From Saccostrea cucullata (taxonomy: Eukaryota): DNA of 64,000 nt. The position numbers are program-made. Of the stretch, positions 18,001 through 63,000 are shown piece after piece; position 1 is the stretch's first letter; every line of letters begins with the position of its first letter. The stretch spans positions 248,001 through 312,000 of the forward strand of contig NW_026928197.1 of assembly GCF_032062105.1 (NCBI RefSeq), in the 5' to 3' direction.

Positions 18001-21000
18001 TAATATGGAGACGACACCATTTGCCGGTGGATCGAGAGCTTCAAATTTTGTCATATACTCTGCACTTACGGCCATTGAGCAGTGAGCGGTCTTTTTCGTG
18101 CCAGCCCTACTGCGACACGGGACTCCGGTTTATATAGAGTCTCGTCCGAAGGACCGGTCTCCACGCACTACAGTGGGATTCGAACCCGCGACGTAAGGAT
18201 CAACTCCCTACCTCTATAGAGCAGACACTCTAACCACTGCGCCACGCGGGCGACTAGGGGACCAATATGTTATCATTCTTAAAGGGAATATTTTTTAGCC
18301 TAGTTATAACATACCATAGTAGTTACGTAAACTCTTAACCCGTATACTTGAAACTTCGGAAATATTTACCACGACTTTCATATGAGGAAGATATGTTTCA
18401 CTGATTGAACAGGAAGCTCCCGTTAGAAATCCACAGTAAAAAGTATGACAGTAATGGAAAACTACACCAACGAAACATCGGATACAGTAGAAGAATGGAA
18501 TAGCAAGCTAGCCAGAGTCCTAATTCCAAATAATGTCATCCTTTCTCTTTATATGATTGTAGGATTAGTTGGGAATTCTACCGTGATTTTTATTTACGGA
18601 TTTAAAATGAAAGGCAACAAGATAAAGGGAAACAAAGAAGAAAGATATTTCATTCCATTTCTTGCCACTGCTGATCTATGTGCTTCGCTAGTTTGTGCTT
18701 CGTTTGGAATCGCTCAAAACTTGATGCAGGCGACATTTGATAACGAGCCTTTGTGCAAGACCTGGTGGTTCTTTGCAGGCCTTACCACGTTGATATCAGT
18801 TTTTCTCCTTATAGTCATTGCTGTACACAGATACCTCAAGGTCTGCAAACCTCTCGGAAAACAAATGACATTGAAGTGGAAGTGGTTCGCCTTGGGTTTG
18901 TGTCTAGCAATTGCACTCCCATTAGCGGGGCCCATGACATATTTTTATGGATCGGAATCTTTCTTTAATGATGAATTGAAGATCTACGGTCGCCGATGTG
19001 GAAGATTGAGCACAACGAACAAAACGAGCTCTTTGATATTTGGTGGCTCTCTTGTTCTAACAGCAATTGCAATTATTGTTGTGTTAATCTGTCTGTATTC
19101 CAAAGTGGGGTACACTATTTTTGTACATTTTAAATATACAAAAGTTCTTGGTAACCACAATAAAACAGAATATTCTCGAAGTGGGGTCTCCACTGATGAC
19201 GACCCTTGCAGCAAATCTGACATGAGTTCGTTTGAGACCCTCGAGACACCCACTACGATAACATCGGCTGTGTACTCCACACAGAAGACCACGTGCCAAA
19301 TTGACACACCCGTTAATAAAGACAAACATCTTCCAAAGCAGTCAAGTAGAAAGCGGAGAAGAAATAAGAGAATTGTGCATAAATTTACACTGATGTTCAT
19401 GCTTATTACTATCATATTTATAATTTGTTACATTCCCAAAGTTATTATCATGCTTCTAGAGGCGAGCAACACGAAATTCTGGGAGGGGTTTTCTGATGCC
19501 GGAAGATCTGCCGTGTCGTTTGTTTACAGGATTTACATATTAAACACTGTCACGAATCCATTTATTTATGCCTTTCTTGACAAGAAATTTTCTAAGGAAA
19601 TTAAGAAATTATTTAAATCTTGTAAAATACTACAGTTCAGATAATCATAAAACGAGCATATTACTTTTAATTGTTTTCATTCATCTTTATTTTTTTTTAT
19701 TTTTTGATATAAATTGAAAAGAACTTGACTTTTCATGTTCAAAACTAGGCACGGTAGTAGCAATGCCAATGTCGATATATTGGGAATCTTTCAAGTGCAG
19801 AGTGTTATCAATGAAATGTAGTCATTTGCATCTTCTTAATCATCATTCTGTCAAATTTATGAGCAATGTTAGTGTGCCAAATGGACAGAATAAAGTTCAT
19901 TGTACAAAATTGTACAAACTTTAATTTATACATTACTTTAACAATTTTGTGAAAGAAATAAATTTAAAAAAAAACTTTTTAAATAATAAAGAGTAAACTT
20001 TTATTGCTGCATATAGTGTATTTAATGTAGCATAATTACCGAATCTTTTCTTTTAATTACATATATTCAAAAACGTAAAAAGAATCTCTTTTTTCTAAAT
20101 GAATTTGTTATATTTATGGTTTTTCTGGGAGATGGGTTTTTTAAAATTACAACAGGATTTTTTTTAAACCCATTAATGAAAGCTTATGAAAATATTCTAC
20201 ATAAAAAATGAATTTAGTAGAAAAAAAAGAAACGCTGGAAGAAGGTCATCTTAAAATTTTGTTTGTTTACCCTCTCTCCTCCGACTGACTTTAACCTCTC
20301 AATTTTGTTTAACTTCAGGAAAACAATTATGATTTTCTTAAATTTATTTCTTAGTTTTCTCAACCGATTAATAAATATTTTAACATAATTTTCGTGTTTT
20401 TGAAAAAAAAAATCTTTCACTACCTATCGATCCCGATATTTTGATTCTGAGTCGGGAGAGGACAAGTAAATATATTAATATGACCCAATATATTCAACTT
20501 GATTATACATGAGGGAGTGTGTACCAATGAACGTGAAAATAAAAACATACAGGATGTACAACAGGGCGGATGATTTTAATCAAATCAAGGAAGAATTTCC
20601 CTATGCCTTGTATATAGAGAGAGGGGAGAGAAAGAGGAGAGAGCGATTAGAAGGTTGACAACTCGCTGAAGATATTATGATCACGTATCTATATCCCTTG
20701 GCATAGGATCTTTGCTATAATATCAGAAATGTCAGTACATGAACAAAAAAAGAAAAAAAAGAAAAGATATACATGTATAAAAATAGTTTCAGTTAATCCT
20801 GGAAAGTTATCTCTAAGAGGAGCATAACTTCCAATTAAAGGGAGTGTTATGAATCATACGTCAAGTGCTACCCGGAAAGGGAGAAACAAAACCGGAGAAT
20901 TGTGCATAAGTTTAACCCGATGTTTATTGTTATAACTGTCATTTTTCTGATCTGTCTTATCTCAAAGGTCATGATTAATTTGTCAGAGGCGAAGAATGAA

Positions 21001-60000: not shown

Positions 60001-63000
60001 ATTAAGAATAAATCTGTTCAGAATTCAACAGTGAGGAGTGAAAAACATCAAGAAAAACATCAACATCAAGGAGTGAAAAATTCTATTGATGAAATAAGGG
60101 GAACAGTAATCAAGCTCAAATGTTATGAAACAACACAAATCACTGGCAGAGCAAACACAGACCTCTTAAACCATCAGAGGTGGGATCATATCAATGGAGG
60201 CCTAAGCATGCACTGTCGACTGAGCATGTCCGCCTTGTTTGGGCATATGGAAAAATGTGAAGACAATTAATTTTAAAAATTCACAAAAATGTTTGTTTTC
60301 CAATCAAGAAAACAACAAAAATTTAAGGACACAAAAATAAGCGTTTCAAAACAAGATTTCAGACGAATTTCTGGTCGTATTAATACCAAATGAATACTAT
60401 GAAGTAGACATTTGTTTTTACGCTGTGAATAAGATCTGTCATTGCTGTCTTCTTGATACGTTTTTTTTTCATTCAAATTGCATAACCTAGATAAAGAGGG
60501 ATAAGTAATGAAAAGAAATCGATTTAAGAATTCTTAAAATTTAAATGTTTCGAACAGGACATACATGTAAACACCGATTCCTAGAAAGTCCAGAGATGAG
60601 ATAAGGTACCTAGAGGAGGTAAGAATCCCCTGGCGAATAAATGTAATATCGTGGTATATGTATCAGGACACTGTACCATTCCCTTACCTGACTCATGGGC
60701 GAGGTCTGGGGTGCATATTCTATAAGGTTGACCTCACAAGGGACATTTTTAACTGTAAAACAATATTCATTGTCTTTAATCTTCCAAACACAATAAAACA
60801 ATTAAAATATAACAAGAGGGGCATTTATTAGAATGATTGGAAGGAAAACTGTGCATTATGTACAGACCTTCGCCACTAACAAACCTACTAGCACCTGTTT
60901 AACAGAGGGAAAAAAATACCAATGTTTTTAAGGTGAACGTTTTTAAGCATAAGACAATCCACCTTTTTGTTTACTCACTCTCCTCACTGTAATAAATTTT
61001 ACAAATTAATTAACTAATTATTGTCAATTAATTATATTATAATTACTTACATCAGAAACTTTCTTGTTTTAGTCGATTACTATTTTACTTTTTTTGTGGG
61101 AAACATTTACGTAGATCAGTATTTTGCATCATTCACAATAAAGCCTTATATGAATATCATCCTGTACCACACATGCATGTATATATAACGCACGTATTAT
61201 TTGATTGAAACCCTTACTTTTGAGTAACTGCACGTGACAAACACAATGCAAACGGTGCATGCATACATAACAATGAATAACTGAATAGAATAAAATATCG
61301 TGAACCAGGAAGCTCTCATTAAAATCATATAGGAGAAATGGATAACGACACATATTTATCCGAGAAACTTGAAAAGTGGAATAGTAAACTAGCCAAAGGG
61401 TTAACTCCGAATAATGTGATCCTCTCTCTGTATATTATTATAGGACTGGTGGGAAATTCTGTCGTCATTCTAATTTATGGATTTAAAATGAAAGGCAACA
61501 AAGAAGAAAGGTATTTTATCCCATTTCTTGCCTTTGCAGATTTGTGGGCCTCCTTTGTATGCGGTTCATTCGGTATTGCTCTTAACATGATGCAAGCCCA
61601 GTTTAATAACACAGATTTGTGTAAAGCGTGGTGGTTCTTCGCAGCTTTTACAACTTTTTGTTCTCTTTTTATTCTATTGATAATTGCTGTGCACAGATAT
61701 CGGAAGGTCTGCAAGCCTCTTTGCAAGCAGATGACATTAAAGTGGAAAAGAGTTGCGATGTGTATTGCGTTAATAACAGCGTTCACCTTATCTGTGCCCA
61801 TGACTCATTTTTATGGTTCCGTACCCTTTCCCAATGATGCAGAGGGCATAACTGGTTTAAGATGCAGCAGACTGAAGACCGTCAACAAAACTGGGTCTTT
61901 GATTTTTGGAGGAATTCTAGTCTTGGCAGCTATAACAATCATTATTACTCTTATTTGTCTTTATACCAAGATAGGATACACTATTCTTAAGCATTTCAAG
62001 TATACGAAGACAAGTAACAACTTTGGGACAGAACACGCCAGTAAGACCGATCAATCTCAAGTTGGAGTCTCAAGTAGTGATAACCCACTGAGTGATACAG
62101 AAAATGGGACCGAAGACATCGGACTGTCTAGCATTCAACCTGCTCCAACTTCTTCTACAGCAACAGGAACGCCCCCTACCATCGATACAACACCCACTGT
62201 AAGAAAAACAGTTCCCTTCAAGTCCAGTGCAAAGAAAAGAAAGGAGAAAGACAACCGTAAAGTTGTCTACAAATTCACTCTGATGTTCATGCTAATCACA
62301 GTCATTTTCCTCATCTGCTATATCCCAAAGGTCATTATTATGCTGCTAGAAGCCAGGAATCCCAAATTTTGGGAGGAATTCTCGGACTCCGCTAGAGCTG
62401 GGGTCTTGTTTGTGTACAGAATGTACATCATAAACAATATTACTAATCCTTTCATATACGCTTTCCTGGACAATATGTTTGCAAAACAGATAAAACATTT
62501 CTTCAGATTCTGCAGATGCTAATGTAACATTTTATTGTTGTTCTTTTTCATTCTTTTCTTGATAATGTCGTTTAAGTCTCCGTTTTATGTCTAGTTTAAT
62601 ATTTCTCTGTAGATAGACAATATCCATGACGACTTACATTCTATCTCAAAGGGCAAGTTTTTATTTTACCATTTATTTTCTTTCAGGAAAGATTCTCAAT
62701 TCAGAAATCATCATGTTAAAAATTAATAAAATGATGTGAAATAAATTTAGGACAGATGAAACATACCAACAATGGATGCCTGGATAAGCATATATTTTGG
62801 GGTCCATTTTTGTTGCAAATGATACAAACAACAACTTTCTTAATTGCCAATAACTTTCTTAAATGTTTAGAAATTATAAACCTTCTGTGGTGTTCAAAAT
62901 TCTTACTCTCTGCGATCATCCTTTTTAATCTATACAAGTAGTTTCCTTTCAGATCCGAACATTGGGGAATTTTTGAGAGAATAAACTACGTTGTGAACCT

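What the first reader, a model, noticed from the sequence alone, without database searches (positions are those of the whole stretch)
18445..62522. 13-copy tandem array of an orphan HRY-type GPCR in active birth-and-death, a candidate chemosensory/ligand-sensing repertoire
Seen: all copies are co-oriented with single-exon CDSs; 6 are intact, 5 disrupted, 2 relic. The two outermost genes (G1, G11) resemble each other more than the inner ones, while the interior runs A-psiB-relic-A-A-A-psiB-A-psiB-B. Established: intronless clustered class A GPCRs with many pseudogenes are the hallmark of chemoreceptor repertoires (vertebrate ORs, TAARs). Inference: this is a lineage-specific receptor family, not a true neuropeptide receptor, even if automated annotation calls it CCK/orexin-receptor-like.
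Basis: partly seen in the sequence, partly recalled or inferred. Interest (0 to 1): 0.75.

Follow-up and report, generated by a model that had tools for sequence, protein, structure and literature searches.

The report
Oyster orphan GPCR tandem gene array
This is a real cluster of thirteen copies, six intact, of a bivalve-only orphan receptor gene that grows by unequal crossing-over and shrinks by gene decay; such clusters are already known in oysters, and what the receptors detect is still unknown.

Summary
18445-62522 holds 13 co-oriented copies of one class A GPCR: 6 intact uninterrupted ORFs (394-416 aa), 5 disrupted copies and 2 short 3' relics.

New here:
- The middle of three 5.69-kb tandem units is an exact chimera of its neighbours, which is the footprint of unequal crossing-over.
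- The two A pseudogenes share one 1-bp deletion.
- The three B pseudogenes carry independent lesions.

Intact copies are under purifying selection (dN/dS about 0.25). The window matches a Saccostrea cucullata contig. All named relatives except two weak hits (a gibbon PrRP receptor and a Littorina protein) come from pteriomorph bivalves, under many inconsistent automatic names. The genes fail the tested features of true CCK receptors: HRY instead of E/DRY, no intron, and only 47 bits to human CCK-A.

[quoted passage not shown] is supported. "Chemosensory" is untested and the evidence is mixed. Tandem lineage-specific class A GPCR expansions with pseudogenes in oysters were published at scale in 2025 (PMC11886862). 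This is a new member of a known kind, of modest interest.

The parts
18445..19644 (+). G1, intact 399-aa class A GPCR (outer type)
   Evidence: Complete ORF. PF00001 E 4.1e-28. Closest relative is S. echinata P0021 at 87% identity.
20857..21132 (+). Relic 1: degenerate TM6-TM7 fragment of a G11-like copy
   Evidence: tblastn best hit is P0003 residues 302-387, 49% identity, E 2e-19.
23405..24649 (+). A23405, intact 414-aa receptor (subtype A, earliest-diverging A copy)
   Evidence: ORF. PF00001 E 1.3e-30. A clade 99/98. dS 0.41-0.42 to the other intact A copies.
26225..27360 (+). psiB26261, heavily decayed subtype-B pseudogene
   Evidence: 15 indels and 5 in-frame stops relative to B55000. B clade 100/100.
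27367..27756 (+). Relic 2: degenerate ICL3-to-helix-8 fragment
   Evidence: tblastn P0017 residues 249-414, 31% identity, E 1e-14. It shares 76% nt identity over 169 bp with relic 1.
27766..33455 (+). Tandem unit u1 (5.69 kb), which carries psiA30714
   Evidence: Self-blastn. 98.9% identity to u2 and 95.4% to u3.
30714..31963 (+). psiA30714: subtype-A copy disabled by a single 1-bp deletion (about 31550)
   Evidence: Alignment A1 column 838. Frame switch in tblastn. dN/dS 0.23 against A42094.
33456..39142 (+). Tandem unit u2: a chimera, with its 5' part identical to u3 and its 3' part identical to u1 (unequal crossing-over product)
   Evidence: In 33490-35580, 56 of 58 informative sites agree with u3. 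In 36970-39142, 383 of 383 agree with u1. The zone 35800-36914 is mixed. u2 has 19 unique differences in all, 18 of them in this zone.
36397..37650 (+). psiA36397: subtype-A copy with a 4-bp insertion (about 36832) plus the same 1-bp deletion as psiA30714 (about 37237)
   Evidence: Alignment A1 columns 436-439 and 838. tblastn frame switches.
39143..44847 (+). Tandem unit u3, which carries intact A42094
42094..43329 (+). A42094, intact 411-aa receptor (subtype A)
   Evidence: ORF. PF00001 E 3e-28.
45554..46740 (+). psiB45554, subtype-B pseudogene
   Evidence: 10 indels and 4 stops, none shared with the other psiB copies.
48486..49736 (+). A48486, intact 416-aa receptor (subtype A)
   Evidence: ORF. 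PF00001 E 3.7e-28. dS 0.15 to A42094.
51901..53076 (+). psiB51901, subtype-B pseudogene
   Evidence: Deletions of 14, 4, 9 and 6 bp and 1 stop. The block 48148-53128 is 86% identical to 41746-46808.
55000..56208 (+). B55000, intact 402-aa receptor (subtype B); the public model P0056 is named 'cholecystokinin receptor type A-like'
   Evidence: ORF. PF00001 E 1.6e-28. P0056 is identical over 348 aligned residues but skips 52 aa. S. echinata counterpart P0035 at 75%.
61338..62522 (+). G11, intact 394-aa receptor (outer type)
   Evidence: ORF. PF00001 E 1.1e-30. AlphaFold model pLDDT 84.7, pTM 0.79. S. echinata counterpart P0003 at 83%.

Best explanation
This is a tandem array of one oyster branch of a class A GPCR family that, among named records, occurs only in pteriomorph bivalves. 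The family lacks the acidic residue of the DRY motif (H or Q at 3.49) and the toggle tryptophan of TM6 (Y or F at 6.48).

Shown: how the array evolves. Two old members (G1, G11) flank a young block found only in Saccostrea. In that block an [A gene + B gene] module and a 5.69-kb A unit were copied by unequal crossing-over between misaligned repeats. Copies then died independently through frameshifts and stops.

Shown: state of the intact copies. The six intact copies are full 7TM receptors under purifying selection. Their intracellular loops 1-2 are almost invariant.

Inferred: what they do. They are working receptors that share one G-protein pathway and differ mainly in the helices and the long disordered third intracellular loop. 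My best guess for their role is detection of variable extracellular ligands (candidate chemoreceptors in the sense of the published lophotrochozoan lineage-specific expansions). The ligands are possibly peptides, given the orexin/PrRP/CCK-like fold with an N-terminal helix and an ECL2 hairpin. This functional step is inference only.
For: Anatomy: (see observation check).

Duplication mechanism.
- Three 5.69-kb tandem units are 95.4-98.9% identical.
- The middle unit agrees with u3 at 56 of 58 informative sites in its 5' part and with u1 at 383 of 383 in its 3' part.
- The 1-bp deletion shared by the two psiA copies lies in the part inherited from u1.
- The block 41746-46808 is 86% identical to 48148-53128.

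Independent deaths: the three psiB copies share no indel or stop. Their pairwise dN/dS of 0.36-0.37 is only slightly above the 0.24-0.27 of intact copies, so the losses are late.

Selection: dN/dS is 0.25 among A copies and 0.24-0.27 between A and B. ICL1-2 is about 0.02. The extracellular helix halves are 0.30-0.41 and the intracellular halves 0.11-0.20 among A copies.

Phylogeny (careful tree, 44 rows x 403 columns: 6 window ORFs plus 38 of the 105 hits, namely those carrying a species name).
- All 28 oyster rows form one clade (100/99).
- The A+B clade holds Saccostrea only (100/100).
- The three intact A copies are sister to a single S. echinata protein (100/98).
- O. edulis has its own 5-gene clade (100/99).

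Family range.
- 230 cluster representatives at E<=1e-30, 1537 at <=1e-10 and 3246 at <=1e-3.
- Named relatives are Mytilus, Ostrea, Saccostrea, Crassostrea/Magallana, Pinctada and Mizuhopecten.

Fold: 7TM + helix 8, N-terminal helix 2-21, ECL2 hairpin 159-178, ICL3 238-285 disordered. Best Foldseek matches are PrRP, orexin, V1a, QRFP, CCK1 and NPY receptors, all at E about 1e-9.

Motifs: in 64 aligned family members position 3.49-3.51 reads HRY 40, QRY 21, NRY 2, QRR 1, with no D or E. No member has W at 6.48.

Literature: lineage-specific tandem class A GPCR expansions with pseudogenes in 60 bivalves, Ostreida among the notable orders, proposed as chemoreceptors (PMC11886862; abstract and passages).
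Against: Against the functional part.
- No pairwise dN/dS exceeds 1 in any region.
- Column entropy in the extracellular helix halves is hardly above the intracellular halves: 1.52 vs 1.41 bits for 64 sequences and 0.64 vs 0.61 for the six window copies.
- The extracellular loops have low dN/dS (0.08-0.26).
- Several extracellular positions are near-invariant family-wide: W14, N15, K96, P154, Y159, G160, E338, W345. This fits a shared ligand class or a structural lid better than open-ended odorant tuning.
- G1, G11 and B have one-to-one S. echinata counterparts, and the G1 lineage also has Ostrea and Crassostrea members.
- No expression or ligand data were obtainable.

Against the structural part.
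- u1 and u2 are 98.9% identical and the psiA lesion is a single base lost from a GG pair. A local assembly or polishing error cannot be excluded without reads.
- However, the 19 u2-unique differences are clustered, not scattered, which speaks for a real copy.
Confidence: 0.6

Rival explanations
1. The receptors bind endogenous, lineage-specific peptides (neuropeptides or hormones of bivalves). The array is a paralogous peptide-receptor expansion, not a chemosensory one.
For: - The nearest solved structures and sequences are all peptide receptors: orexin, CCK, PrRP, QRFP, NPY, NK1 and opioid.
- The model has an ECL2 beta-hairpin and an N-terminal helix before TM1. From memory, these are typical of peptide receptors such as the orexin receptors.
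- Selection is purifying, with dN/dS about 0.25.
- Extracellular positions are conserved across the family.
- One-to-one counterparts exist within the genus.
- Expansions of FMRFamide-like receptors are reported in a snail genome (PMC11589774; title and abstract seen in the listing only).
Against: - No named orthologue exists outside pteriomorph bivalves.
- Turnover is rapid, with 7 of 13 copies dead.
- Copy number differs from S. echinata.
- Characterised oyster neuropeptide receptors such as Cragi-CCKR1/2 keep bilaterian orthology, E/DRY and a conserved intron (PMC6219549), which these genes lack.
Confidence: 0.27
2. They are true cholecystokinin/sulfakinin or orexin/allatotropin receptor orthologues, as the automatic names say.
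For: - NCBI names for many family members say so, including the model of the 55000 gene.
- CCK-A and orexin receptors are among the best PDB hits.
Against: - Only 47-50 bits, and the CCK-A match covers only TM1-TM5.
- 15-18% identity in Foldseek alignments to CCK1R and orexin receptors, against the 26.7-31.5% reported for Cragi-CCKRs vs human CCKRs.
- HRY instead of ERY, and no intron where CCKR genes have a conserved one (PMC6219549 passages).
- Names within the same clade disagree: at least nine different receptor names.
Confidence: 0.02
3. Part of the array is an assembly artefact. On this reading the near-identical units u1/u2 and the single-base 'pseudogene' lesion come from mis-assembled haplotypes or uncorrected read errors, and the true locus has fewer copies and more intact genes.
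For: - u1 and u2 are 98.9% identical.
- The 3' 2.2 kb of u2 is identical to u1 and its 5' 2.1 kb is nearly identical to u3.
- The shared lesion is one base in a GG pair.
- Oysters are highly heterozygous (recalled).
Against: - There is no gap (N) in the window.
- u2 carries 19 private differences, 13 of them in a cluster at 36702-36898 that includes the 4-bp insertion. A duplicated path in an assembly graph would not create these.
- The other three pseudogenes have 5-20 lesions each.
Confidence: 0.1

Closest known systems
Lineage-specific expansions (LSEs) of class A GPCRs in Lophotrochozoa (Nath et al. 2025, PMC11886862; abstract and passages read)
   Same: - Class A receptors form species- or genus-level clades without one-to-one orthologues beyond the genus.
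- They are arranged in tandem and include truncated genes and pseudogenes.
- Ostreida is named among the bivalve orders with notable expansions (C. angulata: 265 LSE genes).
- They are proposed as candidate chemoreceptors.
   Different: - 'Saccostrea' does not occur in the paper's main text, and 'HRY' has 0 occurrences there too.
- That paper reports higher entropy in the extracellular helix segments and positive selection. Here the excess is slight and crude dN/dS never exceeds 1.
Vertebrate odorant receptor and TAAR gene clusters
   Same: Uninterrupted coding exon, tandem co-oriented clusters, many pseudogenes, and birth-and-death by unequal crossing-over (recalled textbook knowledge).
   Different: - No sequence membership. 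Only one of six copies touches Pfam 7tm_4, at 19.6 bits against a cutoff of 27.
- The array is small (6 intact).
- ICL3 is long and the C tail short.
- The architecture is peptide-receptor-like.
Oyster CCK/sulfakinin receptors Cragi-CCKR1/2 (PMC6219549, passages read)
   Same: Class A fold. CCK-A is among the best PDB sequence hits, and the automatic names of the window genes point here.
   Different: - Cragi-CCKRs have E/DRY, an intron at a bilaterian-conserved position, 26.7-31.5% identity to human CCKRs and clear orthology.
- The window genes have HRY, no intron in the ORF, 17-18% identity in structural alignment to CCK1R, and no named orthologue outside pteriomorph bivalves.
Orexin, PrRP, QRFP and NPY receptors (beta-group peptide receptors)
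   Same: Best Foldseek matches (E about 1e-9, TM-score per target 0.72-0.84). They also share an ECL2 hairpin and a helix just before TM1 (the comparison with orexin receptors is recalled).
   Different: - Identity is 12-19%, with no preference for one receptor type.
- 3.49 is H/Q and 6.48 is Y/F.
- Position 5.50 is not proline (read by eye from the sequence).
XCR1, a chemokine receptor with an HRY motif (PMC13655292, passages read)
   Same: His at 3.49 in place of Asp. In XCR1, changing it to Asp impairs surface expression, so H3.49 can be an integral, functional variant.
   Different: This is an unrelated branch of class A; the likeness is one residue only. In the bivalve family H alternates with Q and N.

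Membership tests
Class A (rhodopsin-like) GPCR, Pfam PF00001 | Match to the 7tm_1 profile above the gathering score | tested here: met
   6 of 6 intact ORFs score 99-107 bits against a cutoff of 30.5, over the full model.
Class A (rhodopsin-like) GPCR, Pfam PF00001 | Seven-helix bundle with helix 8 | tested here: met
   AlphaFold model of G11: pLDDT 84.7, pTM 0.79, seven long helices plus helix 379-393. At least 500 PDB matches at E<=0.001; the matches listed are GPCR chains.
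Class A (rhodopsin-like) GPCR, Pfam PF00001 | Conserved microswitches: N1.50, D2.50, R3.50, NPxxY, and the TM3-ECL2 cysteine pair | tested here: met
   N40, D68, R120, N366 and Y374 are invariant; C95, C176, N370 and P371 are conserved in at least 90% of 64 sequences. The numbering assignment is mine, by eye.
Class A (rhodopsin-like) GPCR, Pfam PF00001 | Acidic residue at 3.49 (D/ERY) and tryptophan at 6.48 (CWxP) | tested here: not met
   0 of 64 have D/E at 3.49 (HRY 40, QRY 21, NRY 2, QRR 1). 0 of 64 have W at 6.48 (CYIP 44). These are common but not obligatory features, so membership of the class stands.
CCK/sulfakinin receptor family | E/DRY motif, as in Cragi-CCKR1/2 | tested here: not met
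   HRY in all six window ORFs. Criterion taken from PMC6219549.
CCK/sulfakinin receptor family | Intron at the position conserved among chordate, arthropod and oyster CCKR/SKR genes | tested here: not met
   The six full-length ORFs are uninterrupted. The one spliced public model (P0056) removes TM6 and so does not look like a conserved exon structure.
CCK/sulfakinin receptor family | Orthology and similarity level (26.7-31.5% identity between oyster and human CCKRs) | tested here: not met
   phmmer against human CCK-A gives 47.3 bits, covering residues 27-232 only. Foldseek alignments give 17-18% identity. A tree that includes Cragi-CCKRs could not be built, because those sequences were not obtainable through the tools.
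CCK/sulfakinin receptor family | Arginine that contacts the sulphated tyrosine of CCK | not tested
   No residue-level alignment to CCK1R was made.
Lophotrochozoan class A LSE (candidate chemoreceptors, PMC11886862) | Lineage-specific clade lacking one-to-one orthologues beyond the genus | tested here: met
   The A+B clade holds Saccostrea only. Oyster, Mytilus and Pinctada sequences fall in separate clades. Within the genus, G1, G11 and B have one-to-one counterparts, as that paper also reports for a minority of LSEs (passages).
Lophotrochozoan class A LSE (candidate chemoreceptors, PMC11886862) | Tandem genomic clustering with truncated genes and pseudogenes | tested here: met
   13 co-oriented copies in 44 kb, 7 of them dead.
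Lophotrochozoan class A LSE (candidate chemoreceptors, PMC11886862) | Higher variability in the extracellular helix segments and loops; signs of positive selection | tested here: inconclusive
   Entropy 1.52 vs 1.41 bits (64 sequences). dN/dS 0.30-0.41 vs 0.11-0.20 among A copies, none above 1; loops 0.08-0.26. Site models were not available.
Lophotrochozoan class A LSE (candidate chemoreceptors, PMC11886862) | Expression in chemosensory tissue or response to external cues | not testable with these tools
   No transcriptome or ligand data were reachable.
Vertebrate odorant receptors (Pfam PF13853 7tm_4) | Match to the OR profile above the gathering score | tested here: not met
   Only A23405 matches, at 19.6 bits against a cutoff of 27. 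The other five do not match at E<=0.01.
Nematode-type serpentine chemoreceptors (Srw/Srsx Pfam families) | Match to PF10324 or PF10320 | tested here: not met
   None of the six window ORFs matches at E<=0.01. Precomputed labels show these domains on some homologues only.
Aminergic receptors (suggested by the long ICL3, the short tail and the name 'GPCR No18') | Aspartate at 3.32 that binds the amine | tested here: not met
   Counting back from R3.50 in G11, position 3.32 is alanine (sequence; numbering by eye).

The most novel reading that the evidence does not exclude
The H/Q-RY family is a bivalve-specific class of peptide-type chemoreceptors. On this reading the receptors have an orexin-like lid (N-terminal helix plus ECL2 hairpin) and sense waterborne peptides. 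Candidate cues are conspecific or biofilm-derived settlement signals; small arginine-ended peptides have been reported to induce oyster larval settlement (recalled, not checked here). The fast-turning A/B block would tune this sense between Saccostrea species. The missing acidic 3.49 and the Y6.48 would give the family an unusual activation switch or high basal activity.
Probability: 0.12. Interest if true: 0.75.

Novelty: new member of a known kind. Interest (0 to 1): 0.3.

Why it matters
Bivalve chemoreception has almost no identified receptors. One transcriptome paper says candidate chemosensory GPCRs were still unknown for the class (PMC11682238, passages).

This locus is compact and fully resolved, which makes it usable in three ways:
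- It offers six intact paralogues of graded age for deorphanisation.
- It has a clear one-to-one versus expanded contrast with S. echinata.
- It contains a textbook crossover chimera that shows how such arrays grow.

It also shows concretely that the 'cholecystokinin receptor-like' labels on dozens of bivalve genes are misleading.

It does not open a new category. The phenomenon was catalogued across 238 lophotrochozoan genomes in 2025.

Tried and rejected
1. I first read the shared out-of-frame peptide in psiB26261 and psiB51901 as a shared frameshift. The DNA alignment shows different upstream indels of the same phase (+7 and -14), so I withdrew that claim.
2. I looked for positive selection with pairwise Nei-Gojobori dN/dS, whole-gene and by region. 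There was no value above 1. Site models (codeml or similar) were not available.
Only the search for homologous proteins tables sampled the taxa of the 150 representatives. Most of those representatives remain unnamed.
4. A tree with bona fide bilaterian neuropeptide receptors could not be built.
5. Rfam gave 0 matches and ARAGORN found 0 tRNAs.
6. Pfam on 13 non-GPCR ORF pieces gave only two sub-threshold CUB matches.
7. Literature searches:
- 'HRY motif' + GPCR gave 3 papers, none on molluscs.
- 'QRY motif' with mollusc/bivalve/GPCR found no paper holding the motif term.
- 'Saccostrea cucullata' + genome + GPCR found nothing on this family.
- Fu et al. on C. gigas GPCR duplication appears only as a reference entry and is not held in the library.
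8. The Atlas look-alikes were all molluscan 7tm_1 clusters with discordant automatic names and added nothing further.
Synteny in other oyster assemblies therefore stayed unchecked.
10. Supplements of PMC11886862 (cluster maps, species tables) were closed and may already list this locus or its C. angulata counterpart.
11. No complex prediction was run, because no binding claim is made.

Full report
WHAT IS THERE

The window (64,000 bp, 32% GC, no N) carries six complete ORFs on its + strand. They are 394-416 codons long, at 18445, 23405, 42094, 48486, 55000 and 61338. All six match the rhodopsin-family profile PF00001 end to end (E 4e-28 to 1e-30).

I ran tblastn with the six intact proteins and printed two tables. 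It finds seven more places, all in + frames and all inside 18454-62516:
- five near full-length but broken copies (26225, 30714, 36397, 45554, 51901);
- two short 3' fragments (20857-21132 and 27367-27756).

- outer pair {G1, G11}, 100/100;
- B clade (55000 plus three pseudogenes), 100/100;
- A clade (23405, 42094, 48486 plus two pseudogenes), 99/98.

G11 is only marginally closer to G1 (62% aa) than to the inner copies (59-61%). Synonymous divergence between the outer genes and everything else is saturated. Their likeness reflects old, slowly changing lineages, not recent kinship.

HOW THE ARRAY GROWS AND DECAYS

Self-comparison shows three head-to-tail 5.69-kb units: u1 27766-33455, u2 33456-39142 and u3 39143-44847. 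It also shows an [A + psiB] block, 41746-46808, that is 86% identical to 48148-53128.

Classifying every variable site among the three units gives a clean mosaic:
- From 33490 to 35580, u2 agrees with u3 at 56 of 58 informative sites.
- From 36970 to 39142, u2 agrees with u1 at 383 of 383.
- Between them lies a mixed zone (35800-36914). It holds 18 of u2's 19 private differences, 13 of them clustered at 36702-36898.

This is what one unequal crossover between a misaligned u3 and u1 produces, with the exchange inside the coding region.

The 1-bp deletion that disables psiA30714 recurs in psiA36397, inside the tract inherited from u1. psiA36397 also has a private 4-bp insertion.

The three B-type pseudogenes share no indel or stop:
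- psiB26261: 15 indels and 5 stops;
- psiB45554: 10 indels and 4 stops;
- psiB51901: 4 deletions and 1 stop.

An apparent shared frameshift that I noted was an artefact of equal phase, and I withdrew it.

Pairwise dN/dS among the psiB copies is 0.36-0.37, only a little above the intact genes. They were therefore constrained for most of their history and died late and separately.

Caveat: u1 and u2 are 98.9% identical and the psiA lesion is a single base. Read-level confirmation is needed. The clustered private differences of u2 argue against a simple assembly duplication.

ARE THE INTACT GENES WORKING RECEPTORS?

dN/dS is 0.25 among A copies (dS 0.15-0.42) and 0.24-0.27 between A and B (dS about 0.93-0.99).

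By region among A copies:
- intracellular loops 1-2: about 0.02;
- intracellular helix halves: 0.11-0.20;
- extracellular helix halves: 0.30-0.41;
- extracellular loops: 0.08-0.19.
No value exceeds 1.

An AlphaFold model of G11, built on a 64-sequence alignment, is confident (pLDDT 84.7, pTM 0.79). It shows:
- seven helices plus helix 8;
- an N-terminal helix (residues 2-21);
- an ECL2 beta-hairpin (159-178);
- a disordered ICL3 (238-285).

N1.50, D2.50, R3.50, the NPxxY motif and the TM3-ECL2 cysteines are invariant or conserved in at least 90% of the 64 sequences.

Two canonical switches are absent family-wide:
- No member of the 64 has D/E at 3.49 (HRY 40, QRY 21, NRY 2, QRR 1).
- None has W at 6.48 (CYIP 44).

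In 40 more distant representatives, QRY dominates (26 of 40) and HRY is rare (5). 'HRY-type' therefore describes the oyster branch of a Q/H-RY family.

His at 3.49 is known from XCR1, where it is needed for surface expression (PMC13655292, passages).

WHOSE GENES, AND WHAT FAMILY?

The window's proteins sit on a 323,284-bp contig. That contig also bears P0056, NCBI's 'cholecystokinin receptor type A-like [Saccostrea cucullata]'. P0056 is identical to the 55000 ORF over 348 residues.

In the first search, 105 proteins passed E<=1e-5 among 2,484 candidates. Every species-named hit was an oyster, mussel or pearl oyster, except one gibbon PrRP receptor at E 2.9e-6.

A full HMMER pass over 1.84 billion representatives found 230 clusters at E<=1e-30, 1,537 at <=1e-10 and 3,246 at <=1e-3. 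This is a large family.

Two further searches sampled the distant representatives:
- A profile of 40 of them gave 94 hits among 7,997 candidates.
- A 29%-identical representative gave 16 hits among 3,039 candidates.
Both again named only pteriomorph bivalves (Mytilus, Ostrea, Saccostrea, Crassostrea/Magallana, Pinctada, Mizuhopecten), plus one weak Littorina hit (63 bits).

These searches depend on shared words. Most representatives are unnamed, and the tool that would have named them was switched off. 'Bivalve-only' is therefore well supported but not proven.

Automatic names inside this one family include CCK, GPCR No18, olfactory 5L1/8B3, succinate, kappa/delta opioid, 5-HT2B, NMU-R2, orexin-2, vasopressin V1a, octopressin, angiotensin and rhodopsin.

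Against solved structures:
- The best sequence matches are 47-50 bits, spread over orexin, CCK, PrRP, opioid, NK1, NPY and bombesin receptors.
- Foldseek gives near-equal E about 1e-9 at 12-19% identity.

The characterised oyster CCK receptors have E/DRY, a bilaterian-conserved intron and 26.7-31.5% identity to human CCKRs (PMC6219549, passages). The window genes meet none of these.

COMPARATIVE TREE

The careful maximum-likelihood tree has 44 rows x 403 columns. It uses the six window ORFs plus the 38 hits that carry a species name. Left out were 61 unnamed hits, the 5 copies of the window's own proteins, and the gibbon record.

Results:
- All 28 oyster rows form one clade (100/99). Mytilus sequences group apart from it. 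The two closer Pinctada sequences sit beside the Mytilus group, and two long-branch Pinctada rows lie at the drawing root.
- G1 pairs with S. echinata P0021 (87% identity). Its lineage also has Ostrea and Crassostrea members.
- G11 pairs with S. echinata P0003 (83%).
- B pairs with P0035.
- The three intact A genes are together sister to a single S. echinata protein, P0017 (100/98). The cluster of P0017 has one member.
- Ostrea edulis has its own five-gene clade (100/99).

Copy number is therefore not invariant, and the A expansion post-dates the split of the two Saccostrea species. The flanking genes, in contrast, behave as stable one-to-one genes within the genus.

WHAT IT PROBABLY DOES

Shown: this is a bivalve-restricted orphan receptor family evolving by tandem duplication and loss, with constrained, structurally complete survivors.

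Inferred: all copies share one signalling pathway, since ICL1-2 is nearly invariant.

Their ligands are unknown. The evidence here does not strengthen it:
- Extracellular and intracellular helix halves are almost equally variable (1.52 vs 1.41 bits).
- The loops are conserved.
- No positive selection is seen with the crude method available.
- The fold is that of peptide receptors.

I put about 0.45 on exogenous-cue sensing, about 0.27 on endogenous lineage-specific peptides, and the rest on other or mixed roles. The structural and evolutionary account I hold at about 0.9.

NOVELTY

Tandem, pseudogene-rich, lineage-specific class A GPCR clusters in bivalves, Ostreida included, are in print (PMC11886862). 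My searches for 'HRY motif', 'QRY motif' and 'Saccostrea cucullata' with GPCR found nothing on this family.

The locus is thus a new member of a known kind. Its added points are the resolved crossover chimera and the family-wide loss of the acidic 3.49 and of W6.48.

LEFT OPEN

- Synteny in other oyster assemblies could not be checked.
- There are no expression data.
- No curated bilaterian outgroup tree was built.
- The upstream spliced CUB-like gene was scanned exon-piece by exon-piece only. The joined model was left out.

Noticed in passing
window 55864-56019 and 56196-56208; downstream about 57022-57177: The public automatic model of the 55000 gene (P0056, 389 aa) skips an in-frame 156-nt interval with GT..AG ends. 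That interval encodes the end of ICL3 and most of TM6. The gene's stop codon lies inside a perfect AG|GTAAGT donor, from which the model continues into a downstream exon. This could be a mis-prediction or a real non-7TM isoform.
   Followed up: partly
window 5380-5736 and 8619-8903, minus strand (also ORFs 4779-5399 and 10152-10541): ORF pieces with sub-threshold CUB-domain matches (17.8 and 20.5 bits against a cutoff of 21.4) suggest a multi-exon CUB-domain gene upstream of the array on the opposite strand. The pieces were scanned separately and not joined.
   Followed up: partly
window 7280-8153: A 168-bp satellite of 5.2 copies with 86% matches. It lies within the putative CUB gene region.
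   Followed up: no
window 47091-47602: Tandem repeats of 132 bp (2 copies, 97% matches) and 52 bp (6.2 copies, 94% matches) lie between psiB45554 and A48486. They are unusually G+C-rich-looking for this window.
   Followed up: no
window 36702-36898: A cluster of 13 differences private to unit u2, including the 4-bp insertion, lies inside the crossover zone. Two of the bases match A23405 rather than u1 or u3. This could be a short gene-conversion tract or error-prone repair at the junction.
   Followed up: partly
window 29509-29796, 35198-35479, 40885-41166; compare 59998-60267: Each 5.69-kb unit holds a conserved 94-96-codon open frame upstream of the receptor gene with no Pfam match. A similar short peptide motif appears in an ORF before G11. 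This may be a repeat-element remnant.
   Followed up: no
window 20838-21004 and 27543-27701: The two relics share 76% nucleotide identity over 169 bp. Both are 3' fragments lying just downstream of a longer copy. This hints at a repeated pattern of partial duplication or deletion.
   Followed up: partly
family alignments A2 and A3: An N-terminal 'WN' pair (W14, N15) and the segment RYFIP at the start of TM2 are conserved in at least 90% of 64 family members. The N-terminal helix is modelled with high confidence. That degree of conservation is unusual for a receptor N-terminus.
   Followed up: no
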